Positions 40,119-49,042 of a stretch of 64,000 nt of DNA are shown piece by piece (position 1 is the stretch's first letter; each line of letters begins with the position of its first letter). The stretch is taken from positions 21,788 to 85,787 of the forward strand of contig CAMTYB010000001.1 in the NCBI GenBank assembly GCA_947085855.1, read 5' to 3'. Under the pieces are notes generated by a model, which was given only the letters and a program-made list of their open reading frames with translations, had not been told where the DNA came from and did no database searches. Position numbers and translations under genes: made by a program. Source of the stretch: an uncultured Candidatus Saccharibacteria bacterium (GTDB lineage Bacteria; Patescibacteriota; Saccharimonadia; Saccharimonadales; 2-12-FULL-41-12).

Positions 40119-40550
40119 GTGGCCAAGGCTGATAAACCAAAAAAGAAACTAGCGGCAAAGAGGTCGGCTCCAAAGAGTCCGACCAAAAAGCAACAAACAG
40201 TTCGGGAACGAACTCAAGTTGCAGCCAATAAACAGCCTCGTCGTGTTCGACAGGCAGCTTCTAAGTTGTCGTCACCTATTAAAAAGGTTCGTCACCACGG
40301 CAAACGAGAAGTTCACATTCCGCTACCAGATAACCGAGCTGGCCGTATTTTAGGCAAGCGAGTTCGATTGGTACCACGCTTTGTCCGTGAGGCCTGGCAA
40401 GAGATTCGATTGGTCCACTGGCCAAATCGCAAAGAAACCATTCGCCTCACCATAGCAGTGTTTGTTTTCTCGGTAGTTTTTGCCGTTATTGTCGGTTTAA
40501 TCGACTTTGTATTAGATAAAGTATTTAGAGAGGTAATTATAGGCCGATGA
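40119..40550 (+). CDS. secE: preprotein translocase subunit SecE (long basic N-terminal extension)
   Basis: C-terminal FVREAWQEIRLVHWPNRKETIRLTIAVFVFSVVFAVIVGLIDFVLDKV is the SecE core; GTG start. Confidence 0.85.
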   Translation: MAKADKPKKKLAAKRSAPKSPTKKQQTVRERTQVAANKQPRRVRQAASKLSSPIKKVRHHGKREVHIPLPDNRAGRILGKRVRLVPRFVREAWQEIRLVHWPNRKETIRLTIAVFVFSVVFAVIVGLIDFVLDKVFREVIIGR

Positions 40551-41089
40551 GCAAGCGATATGATTCTCAAAAGCATTGGTACGCCATCCACACCTATAGT
40601 GGATATGAAGAAAAGGTTGCCGAAAGCATTCGTCAGCGTGCCGATAGCTTAGACATGAAAGACAAGATCTTTCAGGTTCTCGTACCAAAAGAAAAAATGA
40701 TCGAAATCAAGAATGGCAAACGAAAAGTTGTCGAAAAGCGGATTTTCCAAGGCTATGTCTTGGTACAAATGAAGTTGAGCGAAGACGCTTGGTTTATCGT
40801 CCGTAACACCCCGTCAGTTACCGGTTTTGTTGGTACTGGCGCCGATCCAACTCCTGTCAGCGATGACGAAATGGAAAAAATCAATAAGCGTATGGGTCGC
40901 GATCAGCCGAAGCACAAGATTGACTATAAAATTGGCGAGGTTGTTAACATCATCGACGGTCCGTTTAAGGGCTTCGATGGCTCAATCAATGAAATCGACC
41001 AGACTAAAGGCAAGCTTAAAGTCTTGGTTAACATGTTCGGCCGCGAAACTCCTGTCGAACTCGACAGCCTCCAAGTTAAGCGCGTTTAG
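40547..41089 (+). CDS. nusG: transcription termination/antitermination factor NusG
   Basis: HWYAIHTYSGYEEKV; KOW GEVVNIIDGPFKGFDG. Confidence 0.95.
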   Translation: MSKRYDSQKHWYAIHTYSGYEEKVAESIRQRADSLDMKDKIFQVLVPKEKMIEIKNGKRKVVEKRIFQGYVLVQMKLSEDAWFIVRNTPSVTGFVGTGADPTPVSDDEMEKINKRMGRDQPKHKIDYKIGEVVNIIDGPFKGFDGSINEIDQTKGKLKVLVNMFGRETPVELDSLQVKRV

Positions 41090-41202
41090 ACATTTGTCCG
41101 TTAATGTAGTATAATTTACAGGTTACGCACTTCTGTCTTTTAGTAATGTAAAAAGAAAGGGAAGGAGAGCGGTTGAGCCTAGCTCCCGTTCGACACAATC
41201 TT

Positions 41203-41634
41203 ATGGCAGATGCAAAGAAAATTAAAGCAAACTTAAAAATGCGCATTCCAGCTGGCAAAGCGAGTGCTGCACCACCGGTTGGTAGCACACTTGGGCAGTA
41301 TGGCGTTAACATGATGGATTTTATCCAACCATTTAACGACGCTACAAAGGAATTACGCGGCATTGTAACGGCGCATATCACTATTTACGATGACCGTTCA
41401 CTGGACTTCCGCGTGGTTAACGAACCAGTTGACGACCTGATTAAGTCAAAGCTAGGCGTCAAAAAGGGCTCTGGCCGACCAAACACCGAAAAACTCGACA
41501 AGAAACTTTCGCAAGCTGACCTAACAGCGATTGCCGAAGTTAAAGCTCAGGACATGAATACTGATGATATCGAAGCTGTCAAAAAGATGGTGGCCGGTAC
41601 AGCACGTTCAATGGGCGTTGAAGTAGAAGGCTAA
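41203..41634 (+). CDS. rplK: 50S ribosomal protein L11
   Basis: KMRIPAGKASAAPPVGSTLGQYGVNMMDF; track TTG 41173 trimmed to ATG 41203. Confidence 0.95.
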   Translation: MADAKKIKANLKMRIPAGKASAAPPVGSTLGQYGVNMMDFIQPFNDATKELRGIVTAHITIYDDRSLDFRVVNEPVDDLIKSKLGVKKGSGRPNTEKLDKKLSQADLTAIAEVKAQDMNTDDIEAVKKMVAGTARSMGVEVEG

Positions 41635-41725
41635 GCCAACCGAACCTTAGAAGTTCGCAGGGAATTGAAAGATTAAGTAATAAATTTGTGGGAGGCTGCA
41701 TAGCCGCTTGGACCACGAAGGAGTA

Positions 41726-42661
41726 ATGATGACTGATAAGAAAACTGACGAAAAAGCTAAGAAAGTAGAAGAAGTTATAGAAGCACCTGTAGCTACTGAA
41801 GCTGAGGTCACCGAAGAAAAAACCGTAGCCAAAGCTGGCAAGCGCAGTGCAAAGGCTATTGCCGAAAGCGAAGAAAAGGTAGCAAAAGAAGCTCGCAAAG
41901 AAGCCGTTAAAGATGGTGAAGAGGCCGACAGCAAGCCAAAGCAACCAGTTAAGCCAGCTCGTAGCCGCTTAGAGCGTCGCAGCAAGAAATATCGCAAGGC
42001 GGCCGAACAAATCGACAAAGCCAAGCACTATAGCTTAAAAGAGGCCCTTGATCTGGCCACCAAGACCAGCACAACTGCCTTTGACGCTAGTGTAGAGATG
42101 CACATTCGCTTGGGCGTAGACCCACGTCAGGCAGACCAGAATATTCGAGACAACATCGTACTGCCTGCCGGCACTGGTAAAACTATGCGCATTGCCGTCT
42201 TTGCTGACGAGGACGTTGCCAAAGAAGCTAAAAAGGCCGGTGCTGATGTAGCGGGTAGTGATGACTTCCTTGCACAATTAGAGAAGGGCACGATTGATTT
42301 TGACGTCTTGATTGCCACTCCAAACGTGATGGCTAAACTCAGTAAGTACGCCCGTGTACTCGGACCGAAAGGCCTCATGCCTAACCCTAAAAGTGGTACT
42401 GTGACTACCGATGTTACCAAAGCTATCGAGCAAGCCAAGGCTGGTAAAGTCGAGTATCGCGTCGACACCACCGGTATTGTTCACCTGGGCATTGGCAAGG
42501 TCAGCTTTGGAACCGGTAAGCTCGGCCAAAACGCTGATGTAGTCGTAGCGAGCATCAAGCAGAACAAGCCAGCGAGCCTTAAGGGTGCCTACGTCAGAAG
42601 CGTAGTCGTGACTACCAGCATGGGTCCGGGCATTAAAGTCCTTCCAAGCGAATTCAACTAA
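41726..42661 (+). CDS. rplA: 50S ribosomal protein L1 with ~80-aa K/E-rich N-terminal extension
   Basis: Core from ...SKKYRKAAEQIDKAKHYSLKEA... GPKGLMPNPKSGTVT, AKAGKVEYR; ATG 41726/41729 behind GAAGGAG. Confidence 0.9.
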   Translation: MMTDKKTDEKAKKVEEVIEAPVATEAEVTEEKTVAKAGKRSAKAIAESEEKVAKEARKEAVKDGEEADSKPKQPVKPARSRLERRSKKYRKAAEQIDKAKHYSLKEALDLATKTSTTAFDASVEMHIRLGVDPRQADQNIRDNIVLPAGTGKTMRIAVFADEDVAKEAKKAGADVAGSDDFLAQLEKGTIDFDVLIATPNVMAKLSKYARVLGPKGLMPNPKSGTVTTDVTKAIEQAKAGKVEYRVDTTGIVHLGIGKVSFGTGKLGQNADVVVASIKQNKPASLKGAYVRSVVVTTSMGPGIKVLPSEFN

Positions 42662-42767
42662 ACACACTGTTATTTTAAACTGTTGTAGTATGCGCATATT
42701 ACTTGCGCCGACTCCTGATTAGTTTGTACAATAGCTCTAACATATTACGTGGTGAGGGGTCCTACGA

Positions 42768-43475
42768 TTGTCTGTTTATAGCAACACACAAATTATAAAA
42801 GCATTGGATGAGGGACATATCGTCATTCATCCCTTTGTTGCTGAGCATCTTGCTGGCAGTAGCATCGATGTGACACTTGGGCACTGGTATTACCGTACGG
42901 AACGACCAAGTGAAGGTGGCTTTTATAATCCGTTTGATGAGACAGCAGTTGATAACTATTTTAGTGGCGCCCAAAAAGCTGAAATTCACGCCGATTGGGC
43001 CCACAAACATGGTCGACAACTCTTCAAGAATATACCTCCGGATCAGCCAATCATCGTTTTGCGACCACATGAGCGCATTTTGGCACACACTCATGAATTT
43101 GTTGGTATCAAAGCACCGGGCACCAGCACTATGCAAGCCCGCAGCACCTGGGGCCGCAATGGCATAGCCGTTTGCCTGGACGCAGGCTGGGGTGATCCCG
43201 GTTATATCAATCGTTGGACAATGGAAATCTATAATATGAACCAACACGAAAGTGTTGTTTTGCCGGTGGGTGAGCGAATTGCTCAGATCGTTTTTTATGT
43301 AACAGGACCTGTCGATAAAGAATACAAGAAGCTAAGCGGCAAATATCAACCAAACGTTAGTGCCAACTTAGAAACAATTGTCGCAAACTGGAAGCCAGAA
43401 CAGATGCTACCGAAGGCTTACAAGGACCAACGACGAAAGCCCATAAAGATCAAAGGACTGAAAGCCTATGTTTAG
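42768..43475 (+). CDS. dcd: dCTP deaminase family protein (dUTPase fold)
   Basis: HIVIHPF....L.GSSIDVTLG, ARSTWGRNGIAV, GWGDPGYINRWTMEIYN, GERIAQIVF; TTG start. Confidence 0.8.
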   Translation: MSVYSNTQIIKALDEGHIVIHPFVAEHLAGSSIDVTLGHWYYRTERPSEGGFYNPFDETAVDNYFSGAQKAEIHADWAHKHGRQLFKNIPPDQPIIVLRPHERILAHTHEFVGIKAPGTSTMQARSTWGRNGIAVCLDAGWGDPGYINRWTMEIYNMNQHESVVLPVGERIAQIVFYVTGPVDKEYKKLSGKYQPNVSANLETIVANWKPEQMLPKAYKDQRRKPIKIKGLKAYV

Positions 43476-43518
43476 ACTCACTCAACCGAAAACAATAACA
43501 GGGTGGGGGAGCAACTAA

Positions 43519-45855
43519 ATGACAAAGCATAAAAAATCTGGATTCTTTTTAGCCCTCGAAGGCACTGACGGGTCTGGCAAAGGCACCCAGTACCAAGAAC
43601 TCGTGAAGCGTCTAACTGACGAAGGCTACGATGTAGCTTCATTTGATTTTCCACGCTATCATGAGCCATCAAGCTACTTTATTGGTAAATATCTGAACGG
43701 TGACTATGGCACAGTCGATGAAGTCGGGCCGTATACTGCTTCATTGTTCTACGCCCTCGACCGCTACGAAGCGGCAAAGGACATTCGCCAGGCACTCAAT
43801 GAAGGCAAAATTGTTATTACAAACCGCTTTACCGGCTCAAACATGGCCCATCAAGGTACCAAATTCGATAATCCAGAAGAGCGCAAAGGCTATTTCCTGT
43901 GGGTCGACTCCATTGAATACCAAATGCTCGGCATACCTCGTCCGGACTTATCACTTGTATTGCGCGTACCAGCAGATCTAGCCCAAGAGCTCGTTGACGA
44001 AAAAGCTGCCCGCAATTACACCTCAAAAAAGCGAGATCTACATGAAGCGAGCCTTGATCACCTTGAAAAGTCTGTTTTGGTATACGACGACCTCTGTCAG
44101 CTATTCCCCAAAGACTTCAAGCAACTCGACTGCGTACGCAGCGGTAAGCTTATAAGTATAGAGGCAGTGCACAAATTAATATGGGAGACAGTAAGTCCTA
44201 TGTTGCCATCAAAAAAATCCAAATCCAAGACTCCCGGCGATGCAAAGGCGCAATCGGAATTAGACAACCCATACCTTGAGAGCCGCGAGCATGGCTTAGT
44301 TATGACGGACGCCGGCAGGGAAAAACTACAGGATATTGTCACTAACACCGAGGCACCAGTTTATGCCTTTAGCGAAGCGATTAGCCCACAAACAATTGCT
44401 GCTGCCATGGCACGATTGAGTCGACGCGGTGACGACATGCGTATCACGCTCCTCGATGAGTTCATTGATGCCGCCGGCAAAGACGAGAAACTCCTTCAGC
44501 GTGTTATAACAGCTTACGGAGACGACTCAGTTCAACAGCTAACTGGAATGCACGTAGTAGTCGAAGAAGCCAGCAACCTGCTTACAAAGAAACTTGAGTG
44601 GGGTCGCTTAGCCTCATACCTCGAACAATCGACTCGCTATATCTATTTTGACCAAAAGGACGCAGACGGGGCCTATCGCTACCATACTCCAGATCACTTT
44701 GACACTAAAACAAAGCGCGCCTACACAACAATCATGGATCAAATTTTTGATACATACTCCCGCTTGGTTCGTGAACTGACTGACTATGTTCGCACCAATT
44801 CAAATGTACCGAAAGATGAGCAAGACATGGCCTGGCGTGGCGCTACACGAGCCCAAGCCTGCGATGCCATGCGACCGATTCTACCAGTAGCTACTACCTC
44901 TACGGTTGGTATTTTTGCCTCTGCACAAGCTATGGAAAGCTTGATCATGCATCTGCAAAGCGACACATTGCCCGAAGCTCAAAAGACAGGCGACGCCATT
45001 CTGAAAGAAGTCAGAAAAGTAGCACCGGTCTTTTTTGAGCGAGCCGACAAGCCTGAGCGTGGCGGTGCCTTTGTTGCGTATCGTGCCGAAACCGCTAAAA
45101 GCGTCAAAACCCTAGCCGACAGCTATCTGCCAGATGTGCACAGCGCCGGAGCTCAACCTGTTACACTCGTGAATGTATGGCCTCGCAATGAGCTAGATGC
45201 TGTGGCTGACATGCTCTACGAACACAGCGCTTGGCCACTTGAGGAAATCACCCAAGAAGTAAACGGCTGGTCATACGATCAGAAAATTGAAGTTTTTAAC
45301 GCCTATATGGGTGAACGACTTAACCGTCGTCACCGACCAGGCCGTGCTCTAGAAAAGATCCACTATTCATGGGATTTGATGTGCGATTACGGTATTTTCC
45401 GAGACCTTCAACGACATCGCATGGTAGACGATCTCGAATGGCAGGAATTAACCCCACGCTACGGCTATGAAGTACCAGCCCTGGTAGAAGAAGCTGGTTT
45501 GAGCGATGATTTCGAAGCCTGCTTTGACGCCAGCCTCAAGCTATACAGTATTTTGCAGGGCGCCGGCTATACCACCGAAGCTCAGTATGCAACTCTGCTC
45601 GGTCATCGTATGCGTTGGAAGGTTACCTATAATGCCCGTGAAGCCTTTCAAATGCTTGAGCTGCGCTCTAGTCCACAAGGGCACCCTGGTTACCGCAAGC
45701 TAGCTCATCAGATGTATGAAAAAATTGCCGAAGTCCACCCTGAACTCGCTGCCGCCATGAAATTTATAAATCAGGATGAAGACCCCCAGCTAACCCGTTT
45801 GGCAGCCGAACGCTACACCCAATTTAAACTCAATAAACTTGATACAGGAAGCTAA
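43519..45855 (+). CDS. fusion protein: thymidylate kinase + two tandem ThyX (flavin-dependent thymidylate synthase) domains
   Basis: aa 1-225 Tmk (FLALEGTDGSGKGTQ, DRY, SNMAHQG); aa ~260-510 ThyX-like (AMARLSRR, EWGRLASYLEQSTRY, MRPILPVATTST); aa ~545-760 ThyX (RDLQRHRMVDDLEWQELTPRY, YNAREAFQMLELRSSPQGHPGYR). Confidence 0.85.
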   Translation: MTKHKKSGFFLALEGTDGSGKGTQYQELVKRLTDEGYDVASFDFPRYHEPSSYFIGKYLNGDYGTVDEVGPYTASLFYALDRYEAAKDIRQALNEGKIVITNRFTGSNMAHQGTKFDNPEERKGYFLWVDSIEYQMLGIPRPDLSLVLRVPADLAQELVDEKAARNYTSKKRDLHEASLDHLEKSVLVYDDLCQLFPKDFKQLDCVRSGKLISIEAVHKLIWETVSPMLPSKKSKSKTPGDAKAQSELDNPYLESREHGLVMTDAGREKLQDIVTNTEAPVYAFSEAISPQTIAAAMARLSRRGDDMRITLLDEFIDAAGKDEKLLQRVITAYGDDSVQQLTGMHVVVEEASNLLTKKLEWGRLASYLEQSTRYIYFDQKDADGAYRYHTPDHFDTKTKRAYTTIMDQIFDTYSRLVRELTDYVRTNSNVPKDEQDMAWRGATRAQACDAMRPILPVATTSTVGIFASAQAMESLIMHLQSDTLPEAQKTGDAILKEVRKVAPVFFERADKPERGGAFVAYRAETAKSVKTLADSYLPDVHSAGAQPVTLVNVWPRNELDAVADMLYEHSAWPLEEITQEVNGWSYDQKIEVFNAYMGERLNRRHRPGRALEKIHYSWDLMCDYGIFRDLQRHRMVDDLEWQELTPRYGYEVPALVEEAGLSDDFEACFDASLKLYSILQGAGYTTEAQYATLLGHRMRWKVTYNAREAFQMLELRSSPQGHPGYRKLAHQMYEKIAEVHPELAAAMKFINQDEDPQLTRLAAERYTQFKLNKLDTGS

Positions 45856-46482
45856 TTAAGCAGCGACTGCCACAGGAGCACGTTCTTCTACTTCTAGGTC
45901 TTCAGCTGGTGACTGCTCTTCATGTTGTTTATAGAGCACGGGCTTTTGCTCTCCAAGCACTGCAATACAAAACTGTGAAGACGGTAAGAAACTTAAGCCT
46001 TGGCAAAAGCGGCTCTGAATTTCTAATACTTCATCTGTAATTTCTGTTTGCAGACCTGAGGCAATGATAAGATCAACCCCACAGAGAGGAGGTCTCGTGT
46101 ACCAACCCCTGATGTGCTCGTATGTCGCCGCTTGACTGATCGGGTTAGATGCAGCTACTCCTAGGTCAACGTGAGTAACTTGCTTGAGGCCGTATGTCTT
46201 AAAAGCAACTTGGGCCATGCTCATCACAAGTGGCGTGACATGTTCGCGAGAAACATTGTGAAATACCGATGGATTACCGTCATATGCAGTTTCGGCAGGG
46301 CTGAGAATAGACGATAAGCAGAGGTCACTCCGCTCCATTGTGGCCGGCACAAGCTCCTCGGCCGCTACATGTAAAGAAGCCCCCATCTCTGAAGGGTATA
46401 CGGTTTCTAAAAGATCAGGCTTGATTGTGGTTAAGGCGCTCTCGACCTTAGCTCGCTCTAGCACTTCTCGGTAACTTGTCAT
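45856..46482 (-). CDS. hypothetical protein, 208 aa
   Basis: ORF with GAGGAAAA RBS on minus strand; no motif recognised. Confidence 0.55.
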   Translation of the reverse strand: MTSYREVLERAKVESALTTIKPDLLETVYPSEMGASLHVAAEELVPATMERSDLCLSSILSPAETAYDGNPSVFHNVSREHVTPLVMSMAQVAFKTYGLKQVTHVDLGVAASNPISQAATYEHIRGWYTRPPLCGVDLIIASGLQTEITDEVLEIQSRFCQGLSFLPSSQFCIAVLGEQKPVLYKQHEEQSPAEDLEVEERAPVAVAA

Positions 46483-46732
46483 GATTTTCCTCGTTAAAAA
46501 AGACTCCTCGCTGTTGCTTGGAGCCCGTTATGGTTCTATTAGTTATTGGGTTTCCAAGCATTCTAGCACAGCGCAATAATCACGTGCTTGTAAGCAAATG
46601 ACTTGGCGTTGAGACTAGTGCGATTGGTGTGTGTTGTCACAAGCCAGAATTATAGGCCTTTTTTTAATTTTGTCAAAAATCTCACAAAACATTATACGCA
46701 ACAGATAGCTCCAGAATGCAAACATATTATAT

Positions 46733-46761
46733 TTGACAGTATATTTTGTCTTTGTTACAGT
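46733..46761 (+). promoter_or_regulatory. sigma70-type promoter
   Basis: TTGACA (46733-46738), 17 nt, TACAGT (46756-46761). Confidence 0.5.
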
Positions 46762-46769
46762 CAAACACT

Positions 46770-46841
46770 ATGGTTACTATGACTTCAAGCAAACTCGTGA
46801 GCCTCGTGATTTTTGAACGCGGCTTGTTTGTTGATGCTTAG
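46770..46841 (+). other. possibly leaderless 23-codon upstream ORF (MVTMTSSKLVSLVIFERGLFVDA)
   Basis: ATG starts 9 nt after the -10 hexamer, no SD; its 3' end forms the 5' arm of a long hairpin. Confidence 0.3.
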
Positions 46842-46890
46842 AAACCTTTAGATCAACAGCAAACAAGCCGGGTCAACACCCGGCTTTTTT
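46821..46890 (+). promoter_or_regulatory. attenuator-like pair of overlapping hairpins ending in an intrinsic terminator
   Basis: ggcttgtttgttgat (46821-46835) pairs with atcaacagcaaacaagcc (46852-46869); terminator gccggg-tcaaca-cccggc-T6 (46867-46890) shares gcc with the first hairpin. Confidence 0.55.
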
Positions 46891-46908
46891 AATGCCTCAG
46901 GAGAGGAT

Positions 46909-47874
46909 ATGAGTCCAGAATTATTACTCCAGAAAGCACCAGAAGCAACTACGCAGAACACCTCGGATCTAGAGATCATCATGCGAGCTGCTCAAGTGCA
47001 AGAAAAAGTTCGCAGCCGTCTATGGTTTAAAAAGGGTGCAACTATTGACTCTCTGTACGAATCCGGTATAACAAATTGCTCCGGTTATGCAATTGTTGGT
47101 TCTGAGGAGCTAGAAAAGCAGGGCATACCACACTTTGTTGGCATGGCGAATACTCATGCAGCCACGTATGTTGTCACTTCTAGCGATATCTGGCTTTTTG
47201 ATATACTATCTCCTGAATTAAGCAAGCCTATTACTCAAGATATTAACTACTTCGATGATACTAATAAAGATAGGATACTCGCTCGCCTTAATGCCCGAAA
47301 CATCACATTTGCTACAGAAGGCGACTATATGTCTATCCTTAGCGAAAATGAATGGCTGAGCATACGCAAGGACTTTGACGCAAGAGGTCGTGCGGAAGGT
47401 CAATATGCCCGTCATTGCCAAAGTCTAGTCCTGGCTTTATTCACACCAAAGCTTGGCAGAGCAATGGTCTACCAGAGACAGAAATTTGTTGACGCCCACG
47501 AGTCTGGAGACGTTATAGGAGCAGCAAACGCATTGCTCAACATGAAAGGCCAGTTTCCAGACCTTGATTTGCGTACAGAGACACCTGAATGCGTAAAAAC
47601 AACAGTAAAAAGGCTATCGAGCCGCGGTTCGTATGTTATGGCTCGCAAAGTAACAGATGCATATTTTGAATCCTTTCAAGGCATTAGCGATAGTCGAGTT
47701 AAGGAGTATCAAGCGGACTGTCTGCGCTATATTGCAAAATTTTCTCGACAGGGCAACCTCGCTCAGCGAGCAATTAAACTTTATGAATCAACTATGCACA
47801 ATCCCAAGTCATACCGCTCATCAATAAAAGCCAAGATCGACCTGTGCGCACCATTAACTAAAGAAAGTATTTAG
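46909..47874 (+). CDS. hypothetical protein, possible transglutaminase-like cysteine peptidase core
   Basis: Candidate Cys-His-Asp triad context NCSGYAIV ... NTHAATYVV ... IWLFDIL; weak, by eye only; RBS CAGGAGAGG. Confidence 0.35.
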   Translation: MSPELLLQKAPEATTQNTSDLEIIMRAAQVQEKVRSRLWFKKGATIDSLYESGITNCSGYAIVGSEELEKQGIPHFVGMANTHAATYVVTSSDIWLFDILSPELSKPITQDINYFDDTNKDRILARLNARNITFATEGDYMSILSENEWLSIRKDFDARGRAEGQYARHCQSLVLALFTPKLGRAMVYQRQKFVDAHESGDVIGAANALLNMKGQFPDLDLRTETPECVKTTVKRLSSRGSYVMARKVTDAYFESFQGISDSRVKEYQADCLRYIAKFSRQGNLAQRAIKLYESTMHNPKSYRSSIKAKIDLCAPLTKESI

Positions 47875-47882
47875 TACTAATT

Positions 47883-48290
47883 ATGAAAAAACAAGATAAA
47901 CGTATAACCAACGCACACATCAGCGATTTTCGTCCGGAGACAAGTCCATTCAACACCGAGGCGGCAAGTTTTCTGCATGATCTTCACATGGCCCATGCCT
48001 GTCAAACCGGTACTCTGCGAAAAATGAATCATGAAACCGGCAAAACCGAAATTGAACAAGAGTATTTTTTCACCAGCCATAAAGCCGTAGAGGAATTTGG
48101 CGCCATATCTGTTAAACACGCAAGTTTAGTTGCTGAGGAACAAAAGATCCAAGCCAGAGCAGATGCCGAAGCTGCCATGGCTGACGAGCACTGGTCTTTT
48201 GGCGCCAATGAACTCCATGGACTCCTCGGGCGAACTGTCCGAGCTGCCGCTCAATCGCAACCCCATGAACGTACCCTTATAGCAGCTTGA
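47883..48290 (+). CDS. hypothetical protein, 135 aa
   Basis: ORF 8 nt after previous gene; no motif recognised. Confidence 0.45.
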   Translation: MKKQDKRITNAHISDFRPETSPFNTEAASFLHDLHMAHACQTGTLRKMNHETGKTEIEQEYFFTSHKAVEEFGAISVKHASLVAEEQKIQARADAEAAMADEHWSFGANELHGLLGRTVRAAAQSQPHERTLIAA

Positions 48291-48299
48291 TAATTTTCT

Positions 48300-48445
48300 G
48301 GTAATTTGCTAAAATAACACTAGTTACCGAAGACAGTAGCGGCCAAGAACATCGTTCGAAGCTTAAGAAGGCTACCGAGGCAATACATGACAACTCGTTT
48401 GCATAGTATGTTTTTCGTCTTTGGTTAACTACCAAAGATTTTTTT
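48300..48445 (+). promoter_or_regulatory. candidate L10-leader-type attenuator upstream of rplJ
   Basis: Stems ggtaa/ttacc, gtagc/gctac, then terminator tctttggt-taact-accaaaga-T7 (48418-48445) 72 nt before rplJ ATG. Confidence 0.35.
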
Positions 48446-48517
48446 ATGTAATAAATAAATGGTCGATACATTCTTTGGTATTAATCGAATCAAAAATCTA
48501 ACCATAAAGGTAGATAC

Positions 48518-49042
48518 ATGGCTTTATCAAAGCAAAAAAAGCAAGAAGTTATCGCCGAAGTTAGCCAGCTATTGGAAGCTTCAAAATTAACTGTTGTTGC
48601 CAAATACCAAGGCACTACTGTTAAGCAGCTCCAGGAGCTCCGCAAACAAGCGCGCGATAACAACACACAAGTAAAAGTCATCAAGAACCGTCTTGTAGTT
48701 AAGGCACTCGCAGGCAGCGAACTGTACAAGGACGCTGACTCAAGCGAGCTTACCGCTCAGTTGCTGTATGCTTTTAATGACAGTGACGAAGTAGCCCCAG
48801 CTAAGGCTTTGGCAGACTTCGCCAAGAAGAATCCTTCAATTCAATTTGTTGGGGCCTTCACGTCAGAAGGTATTTTCATTAGCGCTGACGAAGTAAAAGC
48901 GTTGGCTTCACTACCAAGCAAGGATCAGCTATTGGCTGGTATTATCAATACCCTCAATGCTCCAGTCCGCGGCGTGGTCAGTGGCCTATCAGGCAATCTA
49001 CATGGCTTACTACAAGGTTTAGAAGCAAAAGCTTCATCATAA
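48518..49042 (+). CDS. rplJ: 50S ribosomal protein L10
   Basis: KQKKQEVIAEV...LTVVAKYQGTTVKQLQELRKQAR....V.VIKN.L. Confidence 0.93.
   Translation: MALSKQKKQEVIAEVSQLLEASKLTVVAKYQGTTVKQLQELRKQARDNNTQVKVIKNRLVVKALAGSELYKDADSSELTAQLLYAFNDSDEVAPAKALADFAKKNPSIQFVGAFTSEGIFISADEVKALASLPSKDQLLAGIINTLNAPVRGVVSGLSGNLHGLLQGLEAKASS

What the first reader, a model, noticed from the sequence alone, without database searches (positions are those of the whole stretch)
43519..45855. Triple fusion Tmk-ThyX-ThyX' with complementary degeneration of the ThyX signature
One 778-aa ORF encodes thymidylate kinase (aa 1-225: EGTDGSGKGTQ P-loop, DRY, AHQG) followed by two ThyX-like domains. The ThyX signature is RHR-x7-S followed by RY.
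- Domain 1 (nt 44596-44640) reads EWGR-LASYLEQ-S-TRY. The first Arg and the His are lost, while the third Arg, Ser and RY are retained.
- Domain 2 (nt 45409-45462) reads QRHR-MVDDLEW-Q-ELTPRY. RHR is retained and the Ser is replaced.
ThyX active sites are built at subunit interfaces, so a covalent pseudo-dimer with split motifs implies fewer, asymmetric active sites. Fusion to Tmk would channel dUMP to dTMP to dTDP in one polypeptide. dcd lies immediately upstream, so the locus encodes dCTP to dTDP.
Basis: partly seen in the sequence, partly recalled or inferred. Interest (0 to 1): 0.65.

Follow-up and report, generated by a model that had tools for sequence, protein, structure and literature searches.

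The report
Thymidylate kinase fused to double ThyX
One real 778-residue gene in a Saccharibacteria genome joins thymidylate kinase to a duplicated flavin-dependent thymidylate synthase, and the catalytic residues are split between the two synthase halves, so each protein chain probably builds one active site instead of two; this design is widespread and already machine-annotated but has apparently not been characterised.

Summary
Window 43519-45855 (+) is one 778-aa ORF: Tmk (aa ~9-228), a disordered linker, then two ThyX-fold halves. Each half passes Pfam Thy1 alone. It is not an artefact: more than 120 full-length homologue clusters and 33 fused loci from Saccharibacteria species genomes share the architecture.

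The motif split is real, extends beyond the signature and holds across the family (313 sequences).
- Half 1 keeps the dUMP-loop residues (Tm E86, S88, R90, Y91, R147 equivalents). It has lost R78, H79, N163 and R165; R174 is His here and Arg in about a third of the family.
- Half 2 keeps R78, H79, R80, N163, R165, R174 and H178. It has lost S88, R90 and R147.

In solved ThyX tetramers these two sets reach one site from different subunits. The best reading is therefore one complete site per chain. This is inferred, not shown.

The tandem ThyX occurs without Tmk in at least 596 species genomes. It was noted in 2009 as an uncharacterised "domain duplication". JGI already names the fusion.

AlphaFold gives a flexible Tmk tether, so proximity is plausible but a channel is not shown. 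The dCTP-to-dTDP claim needs a dUMP-forming Dcd, which was not tested.

Verdict: a new variant of a known kind, of moderate interest.

The parts
42768..43475 (+). dcd (dCTP deaminase-like, 235 aa), probably co-transcribed upstream gene
   Evidence: Pfam PF22769 at 3.3e-32. TIGR02274 scores 92.5 bits against a cut-off of 92.8. The best solved relative is 4xjc at 1.1e-14. A dcd is on the same strand upstream in 32 of 36 Saccharibacteria-type loci.
43519..45855 (+). Whole tmk-thyX-thyX' fusion ORF (778 aa plus stop)
43519..44202 (+). Thymidylate kinase module (aa 1-228), mycobacterial-type. Contains P-loop G15-T23, D81-R82-Y83, and LID basic residues K162, R165, K170, R172.
   Evidence: Pfam PF02223 at 1.9e-18. 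M. tuberculosis TMPK 1g3u at 5.7e-19 over aa 10-193. NF005923 scores 124.9 bits, below its cut-off of 193. Key residues are invariant in homologues.
44203..44274 (+). Lys/Ser-rich linker of variable length (aa 229-252)
   Evidence: Length and sequence vary in the alignment. pLDDT is below 50 for aa 233-248.
44275..45063 (+). ThyX half 1 (aa 253-515), the 'dUMP-loop donor'. Keeps K357, R363, E369, S371, R373, Y374, D449, R452. Lost the R78 (W361), H79 (G362), N163 (S468) and R165 (Q470) equivalents; the R174 position is H478 here and Arg in 99 of 313.
   Evidence: Pfam Thy1 72.1 bits. Alignment to 2af6. Family frequencies.
44596..44640 (+). Half-1 motif E-W-G-R-x7-S-T-R-Y
45064..45150 (+). Inter-half connector with a long helix (aa 516-536)
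   Evidence: DSSP on both models.
45151..45852 (+). ThyX half 2 (aa 545-778), the 'flavin/uracil-side donor'. Keeps E612, R628, R632, H633, R634, N705, R707, R716, H722. Lost the S88 (Q642), R90 (L644) and R147 (Q689) equivalents.
   Evidence: Pfam Thy1 62.3 bits. Alignment to T. maritima ThyX. Family frequencies.
45322..45354 (+). Half-2 family-specific motif N602-R-R-H-R-P-G-R609-A-L-E612, of unknown role
   Evidence: R603, R609 and E612 are invariant in 52 diverse members.
45409..45462 (+). Half-2 motif Q-R-H-R-x7-Q-ELTP-R-Y

Best explanation
The gene encodes a bifunctional dTMP synthase and dTMP kinase. The C-terminal 525 residues are an ancient internal duplication of the flavin-dependent thymidylate synthase fold, and the two halves have subfunctionalised.
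- Half 2 supplies the residues that hold the flavin and activate uracil (RHR, Asn/Arg of the N-x-R element, the R174-equivalent R716, and H722).
- Half 1 supplies the mobile dUMP-binding and catalytic loop (E369, S371, R373, Y374) and the R147-equivalent R452.

In canonical homotetrameric ThyX these two sets reach each active site from different subunits. One chain should therefore form a pseudo-heterodimer with one complete site and one degenerate site. Two chains should form a pseudo-tetramer with two working sites instead of four.

Tmk is tethered by a flexible linker. It converts the dTMP product to dTDP, giving one kinase site per synthase site. The upstream dcd feeds the pathway. The three activities sit as a conserved module between rplA and rplJ.

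Shown: the domain identities, the folds, the residue partition and its conservation, the reality and spread of the fusion, and the synteny.
Inferred: the quaternary arrangement, the number of active sites, catalytic competence, and any kinetic benefit of the fusion.
For: - Domains and folds. Pfam Thymidylate_kin and Thy1 x2 are found. The AlphaFold model of the tandem part has pLDDT 94.4 and pTM 0.91. Foldseek hits only ThyX chains, with probability 1.00 and target TM about 0.70.
- Residue partition over 313 sequences. Half 1 has S 300, R 298, Y 297, E 305 and R147-equivalent R 300; its R78 position is W 230 / R 42, its H79 position is G 252 / H 4, and its R165 position is Q 277. Half 2 has RHR 302/299/299, N 299, R 304, R174-equivalent R 297 and H 298; its S88 position is Q 301 and its R147 position is Q 245.
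- The same invariants appear in 52 diverse standalone members at 29-54% identity.
- Published structures. In MtbFDTS, dUMP is held by Arg95(A) and Arg199(A) plus Arg87(C), Ser105(C), Arg107(C) and Tyr108(C) (PMC6514825). In PBCV-1 ThyX, Gln75 and Arg182 come from monomer A and Ser88 and Gln89 from monomer B (PMC3498832).
- S88, R90, Y91 and R174 matter for catalysis (PMC8316439).
- The fusion is under selection. There are 33 fused loci. They carry two different Tmk types that are only 27% identical to each other, on tandem ThyX parts that are about 70% identical. Two lineages have adjacent but unfused tmk and thyXX genes.
- Synteny. dcd lies upstream in 32 of 36 loci. rplA and rplJ flank the module in 24 and 27 loci.
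Against: - No coordinates were available, so I could not verify that R632/R716 of half 2 face S371/R373/Y374 of half 1 in the model.
- No oligomer was modelled.
- No biochemical data were found for any member of this tandem family in the searchable literature.
- The protein fails the TIGR02170 thyX equivalog cut-off (61.9 against 87.9 bits).
- In most non-Saccharibacteria members half 1 still has Arg at the R174 position (99 of 313), and 42 of 313 keep the first Arg. The 'dead' site is therefore not equally degenerate everywhere.
- The full-length model gives no fixed Tmk-ThyX contact (pTM 0.62). A channelling benefit is unsupported.
Confidence: 0.7

Rival explanations
1. The tandem ThyX is a neofunctionalised paralogue that methylates or modifies something other than dUMP (compare the UMP C5-methylase PolB of the ThyX fold). 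The Tmk-like module would then phosphorylate that product.
For: It scores below the TIGR02170 equivalog cut-off. The two halves are very divergent from solved ThyX (about 19% identity). There is a family-specific invariant motif NRRH(K/R)PGRAxE of unknown role. No member has been characterised: it is described as 'not characterized' in PMC3224940.
Against: Every residue known to bind or activate dUMP and to hold FAD is present once per chain. The partner is a bona fide Tmk of two different subtypes, one of which passes the TIGR00041 equivalog cut-off. dcd is syntenic. Chloroflexi with the duplicated form are reported to have only this ThyX (PMC3224940). No other thyX or tmk lies in the 64-kb window.
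Confidence: 0.1
2. Half 1 is only a structural pseudo-enzyme scaffold. Catalysis uses half 2 alone, in homotypic half 2-half 2' sites, with other residues replacing Ser, Arg and Tyr.
For: Half 2 keeps the classical RHR and most flavin-side residues.
Against: A scaffold would not keep exactly the catalytic loop E, S, R, Y and the R147 equivalent invariant in at least 297 of 313 sequences. Half 2 has no conserved Ser, Arg or Tyr at or near the loop position across the family.
Confidence: 0.05
3. Both pseudo-sites work, giving four sites per pseudo-tetramer. The substitutions W361/G362/H478 and Q642 would be tolerated variants.
For: R363 (the R80 equivalent) is kept in half 1. Some members keep Arg at the R78 or R174 positions of half 1.
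Against: The second pocket would lack S88, R90 and Y91. It would also lack R78, H79, N163 and R165 and, in this protein, R174. S88A, R90A and Y91A are strongly defective, and R174 activates dUMP, in T. maritima ThyX (PMC8316439).
Confidence: 0.04
4. The fusion is an assembly or sequencing artefact that hides a stop or frameshift between tmk and thyX.
For: Two Saccharibacteria lineages (L032, L034) do have separate adjacent genes.
Against: More than 120 independent clusters of 759-806 aa from many assemblies cover 98-100% of the query. There are 33 fused loci in species-representative genomes. The reading frame is continuous through a conserved junction.
Confidence: 0.01

Closest known systems
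Canonical homotetrameric flavin-dependent thymidylate synthase ThyX (T. maritima TM0449, PDB 1O26; M. tuberculosis Rv2754c, PDB 2AF6)
   Same: The fold is the same in both halves (Foldseek probability 1.00, target TM about 0.70). Pfam Thy1 matches each half. All catalytic, dUMP-binding and flavin-binding residues are present once per chain. Active sites are built from more than one ThyX unit.
   Different: Two ThyX units sit in one chain and are barely alike (hhalign E 0.003, 9% identity). Neither unit has a full RHR-x7-S motif. Two complete sites per pseudo-tetramer are expected instead of four. It scores below the TIGR02170 cut-off. It is fused to Tmk.
'Domain-duplicated ThyX' of Chloroflexi noted by Valas and Bourne 2009 (PMC3224940)
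   Same: The architecture is the same (two ThyX domains in one protein). The family found here includes a Dehalococcoidia (Chloroflexota) locus, L069, at 43% identity.
   Different: That note gives no analysis of motifs and states the protein is uncharacterised. It describes no Tmk fusion. I did not test directly that the Chloroflexus-type proteins they meant belong to this family.
Chlamydia trachomatis ThyX (Griffin et al. 2005, J Biol Chem 280:5456; cited)
   Same: From memory only: the protein is annotated at about 529 aa, which is tandem length, and was shown to be an active flavin-dependent thymidylate synthase.
   Different: If it is a member, the catalytic competence of the tandem form is already known.
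Mycobacterial-type thymidylate kinase (M. tuberculosis TMPK, PDB 1G3U)
   Same: It is the best solved relative of aa 10-193 (5.7e-19). It shares the P-loop, the FPRY segment, D-R-Y and a basic LID.
   Different: It scores below the NF005923 and TIGR00041 equivalog cut-offs. It is covalently joined to ThyX.
Bifunctional DHFR-TS of protozoa and plants (established knowledge)
   Same: It is a fusion of two enzymes of thymidylate metabolism in one chain, read as coupling of consecutive or linked steps.
   Different: The enzymes are unrelated (ThyA and DHFR). It has a defined interdomain geometry, whereas here only a flexible tether is predicted.

Membership tests
ThyX / Thy1 (flavin-dependent thymidylate synthase) | Sequence match to Pfam PF02511 above the gathering score | tested here: met
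   Whole protein 127.8 bits. Half 1 alone 72.1 bits and half 2 alone 62.3 bits, against a cut-off of 24.8.
ThyX / Thy1 (flavin-dependent thymidylate synthase) | NCBIfam equivalog TIGR02170 cut-off | tested here: not met
   61.9 bits against a cut-off of 87.9.
ThyX / Thy1 (flavin-dependent thymidylate synthase) | ThyX signature RHR-x7-S (followed by x-R-Y) within one domain | tested here: not met
   Half 1 reads W-G-R-x7-S-T-R-Y. Half 2 reads R-H-R-x7-Q with no aligned S, R or Y. The signature is complete only when the two halves are combined.
ThyX / Thy1 (flavin-dependent thymidylate synthase) | ThyX fold | tested here: met
   AlphaFold model with pLDDT 94.4. Foldseek against PDB: the top 50 hits are all ThyX, probability 1.00, target TM 0.66-0.72.
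ThyX / Thy1 (flavin-dependent thymidylate synthase) | Flavin-side residues (Tm R78, H79, R80, N163, R165, R174, H178) | tested here: met
   All are present in half 2: R632, H633, R634, N705, R707, R716, H722. Each is kept in at least 297 of 313 sequences.
ThyX / Thy1 (flavin-dependent thymidylate synthase) | Homotetramer with four sites, each built from three subunits | not testable with these tools
   No multimer prediction and no model coordinates were available. A dimer of tandem chains is inferred.
ThyX / Thy1 (flavin-dependent thymidylate synthase) | FAD-, NADPH- and CH2H4folate-dependent dUMP-to-dTMP activity | not testable with these tools
   Needs biochemistry or thyA complementation.
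Thymidylate kinase (Tmk) | Pfam PF02223 above the gathering score | tested here: met
   67.3 bits against 27.
Thymidylate kinase (Tmk) | NCBIfam equivalog cut-offs (NF005923, TIGR00041) | tested here: not met
   124.9 bits against 193, and 71.7 bits against 83.25, for the isolated domain.
Thymidylate kinase (Tmk) | P-loop, D-R-Y/H/F motif and basic LID | tested here: met
   G15-x-x-G18-x-G20-K21, D81-R82-Y83, and K162, R165, K170, R172 are all invariant or nearly so in homologues. They align to M. tuberculosis TMPK.
dCTP deaminase (Dcd), upstream gene | Pfam PF22769 and TIGR02274 | tested here: inconclusive
   PF22769 scores 112.1 bits against 27, which is met. TIGR02274 scores 92.5 bits against a cut-off of 92.8, just under. 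Whether it is monofunctional (dUTP-forming) or bifunctional (dUMP-forming) was not resolved.

The most novel reading that the evidence does not exclude
The tandem ThyX is an obligate pseudo-heterotetramer with only two catalytic sites, and the two degenerate pockets have not simply decayed. They have been remodelled into a new functional site, for example for NADPH or for an allosteric nucleotide. Half 1 keeps R363, D335 and S337, and half 2 carries the invariant NRRH(K/R)PGRAxE element. The repeated capture of two unrelated Tmk subtypes would then show that a one-to-one physical coupling of dTMP synthesis and phosphorylation is itself selected in these reduced genomes.
Probability: 0.2. Interest if true: 0.65.

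Novelty: new variant of a known kind. Interest (0 to 1): 0.45.

Why it matters
ThyX is an antibacterial target, and its chemistry depends on sites shared between subunits. A natural, widespread form in which duplication has divided the site-forming residues between two covalently linked halves is a clean case of duplication, degeneration and complementation inside an oligomeric enzyme.

It gives testable predictions: one FAD and one dUMP per chain, and distinct mutational sensitivity of the two halves. It also offers a simpler asymmetric scaffold for mechanistic and inhibitor work.

For Saccharibacteria and other reduced-genome bacteria, it defines how dTDP is made. A compact dcd plus tmk-thyXX module sits inside the ribosomal-protein cluster.

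It also shows that current equivalog models (TIGR02170) miss this large family.

Tried and rejected
- Single-sequence search of the tandem part against PDB sequences found nothing. A family profile was needed.
- Global hhalign of half 1 against half 2 gave a meaningless alignment. Local mode gave a weak but colinear match.
- The AFDB50 fold library was unavailable. I could not use it to name characterised tandem relatives such as Chlamydia.
- Cluster look-up of ten representatives gave almost no names or organisms.
- Literature searches found nothing on the fusion or on a split motif. I tried ThyX with Saccharibacteria, tandem, fusion, CT632 and tmk+fused. Only one 2009 remark on a 'domain duplication' turned up.
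- Key primary papers are not held: Leduc 2004, Ulmer 2008, Liu and Yang 2004.
- My first column mapping of the 313-sequence alignment was wrong because of insert characters, and I redid it (superseded).
- The assembly-artefact idea is rejected.
- The idea that R647-Y648 of half 2 is the canonical R-Y is rejected.
- A phage origin was considered. Only one jumbo phage carries a tandem ThyX, and no phage carries the fusion.
Full report
**Observation.** The window holds one uninterrupted ORF at 43519-45855 on the + strand, 778 aa. It has a Shine-Dalgarno-like GGTGGGGGAG 8 nt before the ATG. A 43-nt gap separates it from the stop of the upstream gene, with no terminator-like site in the gap. Pfam finds Thymidylate_kin (aa 13-204, 1.9e-18) and Thy1 in two stretches (5.8e-37). 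Cut in two, aa 253-515 scores 72.1 bits and aa 516-778 scores 62.3 bits against Thy1, whose cut-off is 24.8. The upstream gene at 42768-43475 is dCTP-deaminase-like (PF22769, 3.3e-32).

**Not an artefact.** A search of the large protein collection returned more than 120 clusters of 759-806 aa. They cover 98-100% of the query at 67-97% identity and come from many independent assemblies. JGI names several of them 'thymidylate kinase/thymidylate synthase ThyX', and NCBI names them 'FAD-dependent thymidylate synthase [Candidatus Saccharibacteria]'. In one-genome-per-species contigs, 33 Saccharibacteria-type loci carry the fusion. The junction is a Lys/Ser-rich segment of variable length. AlphaFold predicts it to be disordered (aa 233-248, pLDDT below 50).

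**The tandem ThyX is a large family of its own.**
- The 525-aa tandem part alone found 3571 representatives at 50% identity clustering, 716 of them below 1e-30.
- Of the best 150, 86 are standalone proteins of 480-640 aa and 33 are at least 640 aa with a Tmk module.
- After the Saccharibacteria, the best loci are Acidimicrobiia and other Actinomycetota, Acidobacteriota, Dehalococcoidia and Rokubacteria. All of these are standalone, with no tmk or dcd within 4 kb.
- No solved structure of a tandem form exists among the PDB matches. All matched chains are 270 aa or shorter.

**Alignment of each half to solved ThyX.**
- A profile of 52 diverse members (A2, 29-54% identical to the window protein) aligns half 1 to M. 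tuberculosis ThyX (E 5.5e-12). W361, G362, R363 fall under R95, H96, R97. S371, R373, Y374 fall under S105, R107, Y108. R452 falls under the 'AAR-xx-LP' arginine. H478 falls under R199.
- The same profile aligns half 2 to T. maritima ThyX residues 57-180. E612 falls under E58, R628 under R74, RHR under R78-R80, N705 and R707 under N163 and R165, R716 under R174, and H722 under H178. The canonical S88-G-R90-Y91 is treated as an insertion missing from half 2, and Q689 falls under R147.
- The two halves are barely alike: local hhalign gives E 0.003, 9% identity, colinear over 211 columns. The duplication is therefore old.

**The partition is conserved.** The counts come from 313 sequences with at least 430 aligned positions.
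- Half 1 keeps E 305, S 300, R 298, Y 297 and the R147-equivalent R 300.
- Half 1 has W 230 / R 42 at the R78 position, G 252 / H 4 at H79, S/T 278 / N 28 at N163, Q 277 / R 24 at R165, and H 154 / R 99 at R174.
- Half 2 keeps R 302, H 299, R 299, N 299, R 304, R 297 and H 298.
- Half 2 has Q 301 / S 2 at the S88 position, L 286 at R90 and Q 245 at R147.
- The set is weighted towards Saccharibacteria. However, the 52-member diverse set shows the same invariants, and the commonest residue patterns are the same in the Actinomycetota loci.
I do not count it.

**Why this implies one site per chain.** In solved ThyX tetramers each site is built from three subunits.
- A review of the M. tuberculosis and H. 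pylori structures assigns Arg95 (the first Arg of RHR) and Arg199 to subunit A. It assigns Arg87, Ser105, Arg107 and Tyr108 to subunit C of the same site (PMC6514825).
- The PBCV-1 inhibitor complex likewise has Gln75 and Arg182 from monomer A and Ser88 and Gln89 from monomer B (PMC3498832).
- R78 contacts the flavin (PMC11940539).
- R174 activates dUMP, and S88A, R90A and Y91A are strongly defective (PMC8316439).
- The residues kept only in half 2 are therefore the 'subunit A' set, and those kept only in half 1 are the 'subunit C' set. A half 2-half 1 pairing gives one complete site. The reciprocal pocket lacks both sets.
- This step is inference. The tools return no coordinates and no multimer model.
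- The tandem model itself is confident (pLDDT 94.4, pTM 0.91). That fits a fixed pseudo-dimer.

**The kinase and the fusion.**
- The N-terminal module is closest to M. tuberculosis TMPK (5.7e-19). It has an intact P-loop, D-R-Y and basic LID residues, all conserved in homologues. It falls below both NCBIfam equivalog cut-offs.
- In the full-length model pTM drops to 0.62. AlphaFold thus sees a tethered kinase, not a docked one. Proximity is plausible but a channel is not shown.
- Unexpectedly, 13 of the fused loci and 17 of the fused representatives carry a different Tmk. This is the canonical TIGR00041 type (100.7 bits, above its cut-off), only 27% identical to the window's Tmk. It sits on tandem ThyX parts that are about 70% identical to the window's.
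- Two lineages (L032, L034) have tmk and the tandem thyX as adjacent separate genes.
- Together these points indicate fusion from a tmk-thyXX gene pair, followed by module replacement or repeated fusion. That argues the fusion itself is selected.

**Context.**
- A dcd lies upstream on the same strand in 32 of 36 Saccharibacteria-type loci.
- The module sits between secE-nusG-rplK-rplA and rplJ in the window. rplA is upstream in 24 related loci and rplJ is downstream in 27.
- No second tmk, thyX or dcd is in the 64-kb window.
- The claim that the locus covers dCTP to dTDP requires the Dcd to form dUMP, or a separate dUTPase. The Dcd is just under the TIGR02274 cut-off, and its best solved relative is 4xjc. 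From memory, 4xjc is a bifunctional enzyme, but this is not settled here.

**What is known.**
- Searches for the fusion or for a split motif found nothing.
- From memory, and untested: Chlamydia ThyX is about 529 aa and was shown to be active (Griffin et al. 2005). Liu and Yang (2004) described 'distinctive ThyX motifs' in Trichodesmium.
- If those proteins belong to this family, catalytic competence of the tandem form is already established, and part of the motif oddity has been seen before.

**Verdict.** The core interpretation (a pseudo-dimer with complementary loss, and hence fewer sites) is well supported by conservation and published structures but is not shown directly. The channelling and full-pathway statements are unproven. 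The thing is widespread and machine-annotated, so it is not categorically new. It is an uncharacterised variant of ThyX with a clear, testable mechanism, plus a recurrent Tmk fusion.

Noticed in passing
L005:3251-3940 (also L006, L011, L012, L016, L017, L020, L025, L027, L028, L036), compared with window 43519-44202: Two unrelated Tmk subtypes are fused to nearly the same tandem ThyX in Saccharibacteria. One is the mycobacterial type, as in the window. The other is the canonical TIGR00041 type. They are 27% identical to each other, while the ThyX parts are about 70% identical. This points to module swapping or independent fusions.
   Followed up: partly
L032:2898-5605 and L034:2989-5575: In two Saccharibacteria lineages, tmk and the tandem thyX are separate adjacent genes (95-nt and 40-nt gaps, different frames). 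The L032 ThyX has an acidic N-terminal extension of about 100 aa. This is probably the pre-fusion state, although frameshift errors in these MAGs are not excluded.
   Followed up: partly
window 40119-49042; L001-L036: The dcd plus tmk-thyXX module, with a few unannotated ORFs, splits the otherwise near-universal secE-nusG-rplK-rplA / rplJ cluster. This placement is conserved in related species genomes (rplA upstream in 24 loci, rplJ downstream in 27).
   Followed up: partly
window 45322-45354 (aa 602-612): Half 2 carries a family-specific, almost invariant motif N-R-R-H-(K/R)-P-G-R-A-(F/L)-E just before the E58 equivalent. Canonical ThyX has nothing like it. Its role is unknown; it may replace the H53 region.
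   Followed up: no
P0198, P0199, P0231, P0233, P0238, P0243, P0252, P0264: A subgroup of standalone tandem ThyX keeps the N163 and R165 equivalents, and a Lys at the R174 position, in half 1 (pattern D-x-R / N-R-K). The second pocket is therefore less degenerate in some lineages.
   Followed up: no
P0126 (729 aa): A fused relative has an N-terminal kinase-like module with a ruined P-loop ('LLDGPDDLYVV'). This may be a decaying Tmk domain.
   Followed up: no
PP885688.1 46495-47979 (hit H1): Tunturiibacter phage Tunturi_5 is a 309-kb jumbo phage of an Acidobacteriota host. It encodes a tandem ThyX that matches query aa 276-748 at 24.6% identity and is annotated 'thymidylate synthase'. No phage in the collection has the Tmk fusion.
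   Followed up: no
window 42768-43475: The Dcd is long (235 aa) and falls 0.3 bits under the TIGR02274 cut-off. Its best solved relative is 4xjc rather than E. coli Dcd. Whether it forms dUTP or dUMP is open.
   Followed up: partly
window 45856-48290: Three ORFs lie between the fusion gene and rplJ: 208 aa on the minus strand, then 321 aa and 135 aa on the plus strand. None has a Pfam match. Only the 321-aa ORF has a relative in one related locus (L002).
   Followed up: partly
window 41708-42661: Ribosomal protein L1 has an N-terminal Lys/Glu/Ala-rich extension of about 115 aa before the Pfam L1 domain, which matches aa 119-307.
   Followed up: no
L021 (DATHJH010000006.1): A contig labelled Candidatus Limnocylindria (Chloroflexota) carries a Tmk-fused copy 68% identical to the window's, with rplK, rplA and dcd upstream. 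It looks like a Saccharibacteria contig that was mis-binned.
   Followed up: no
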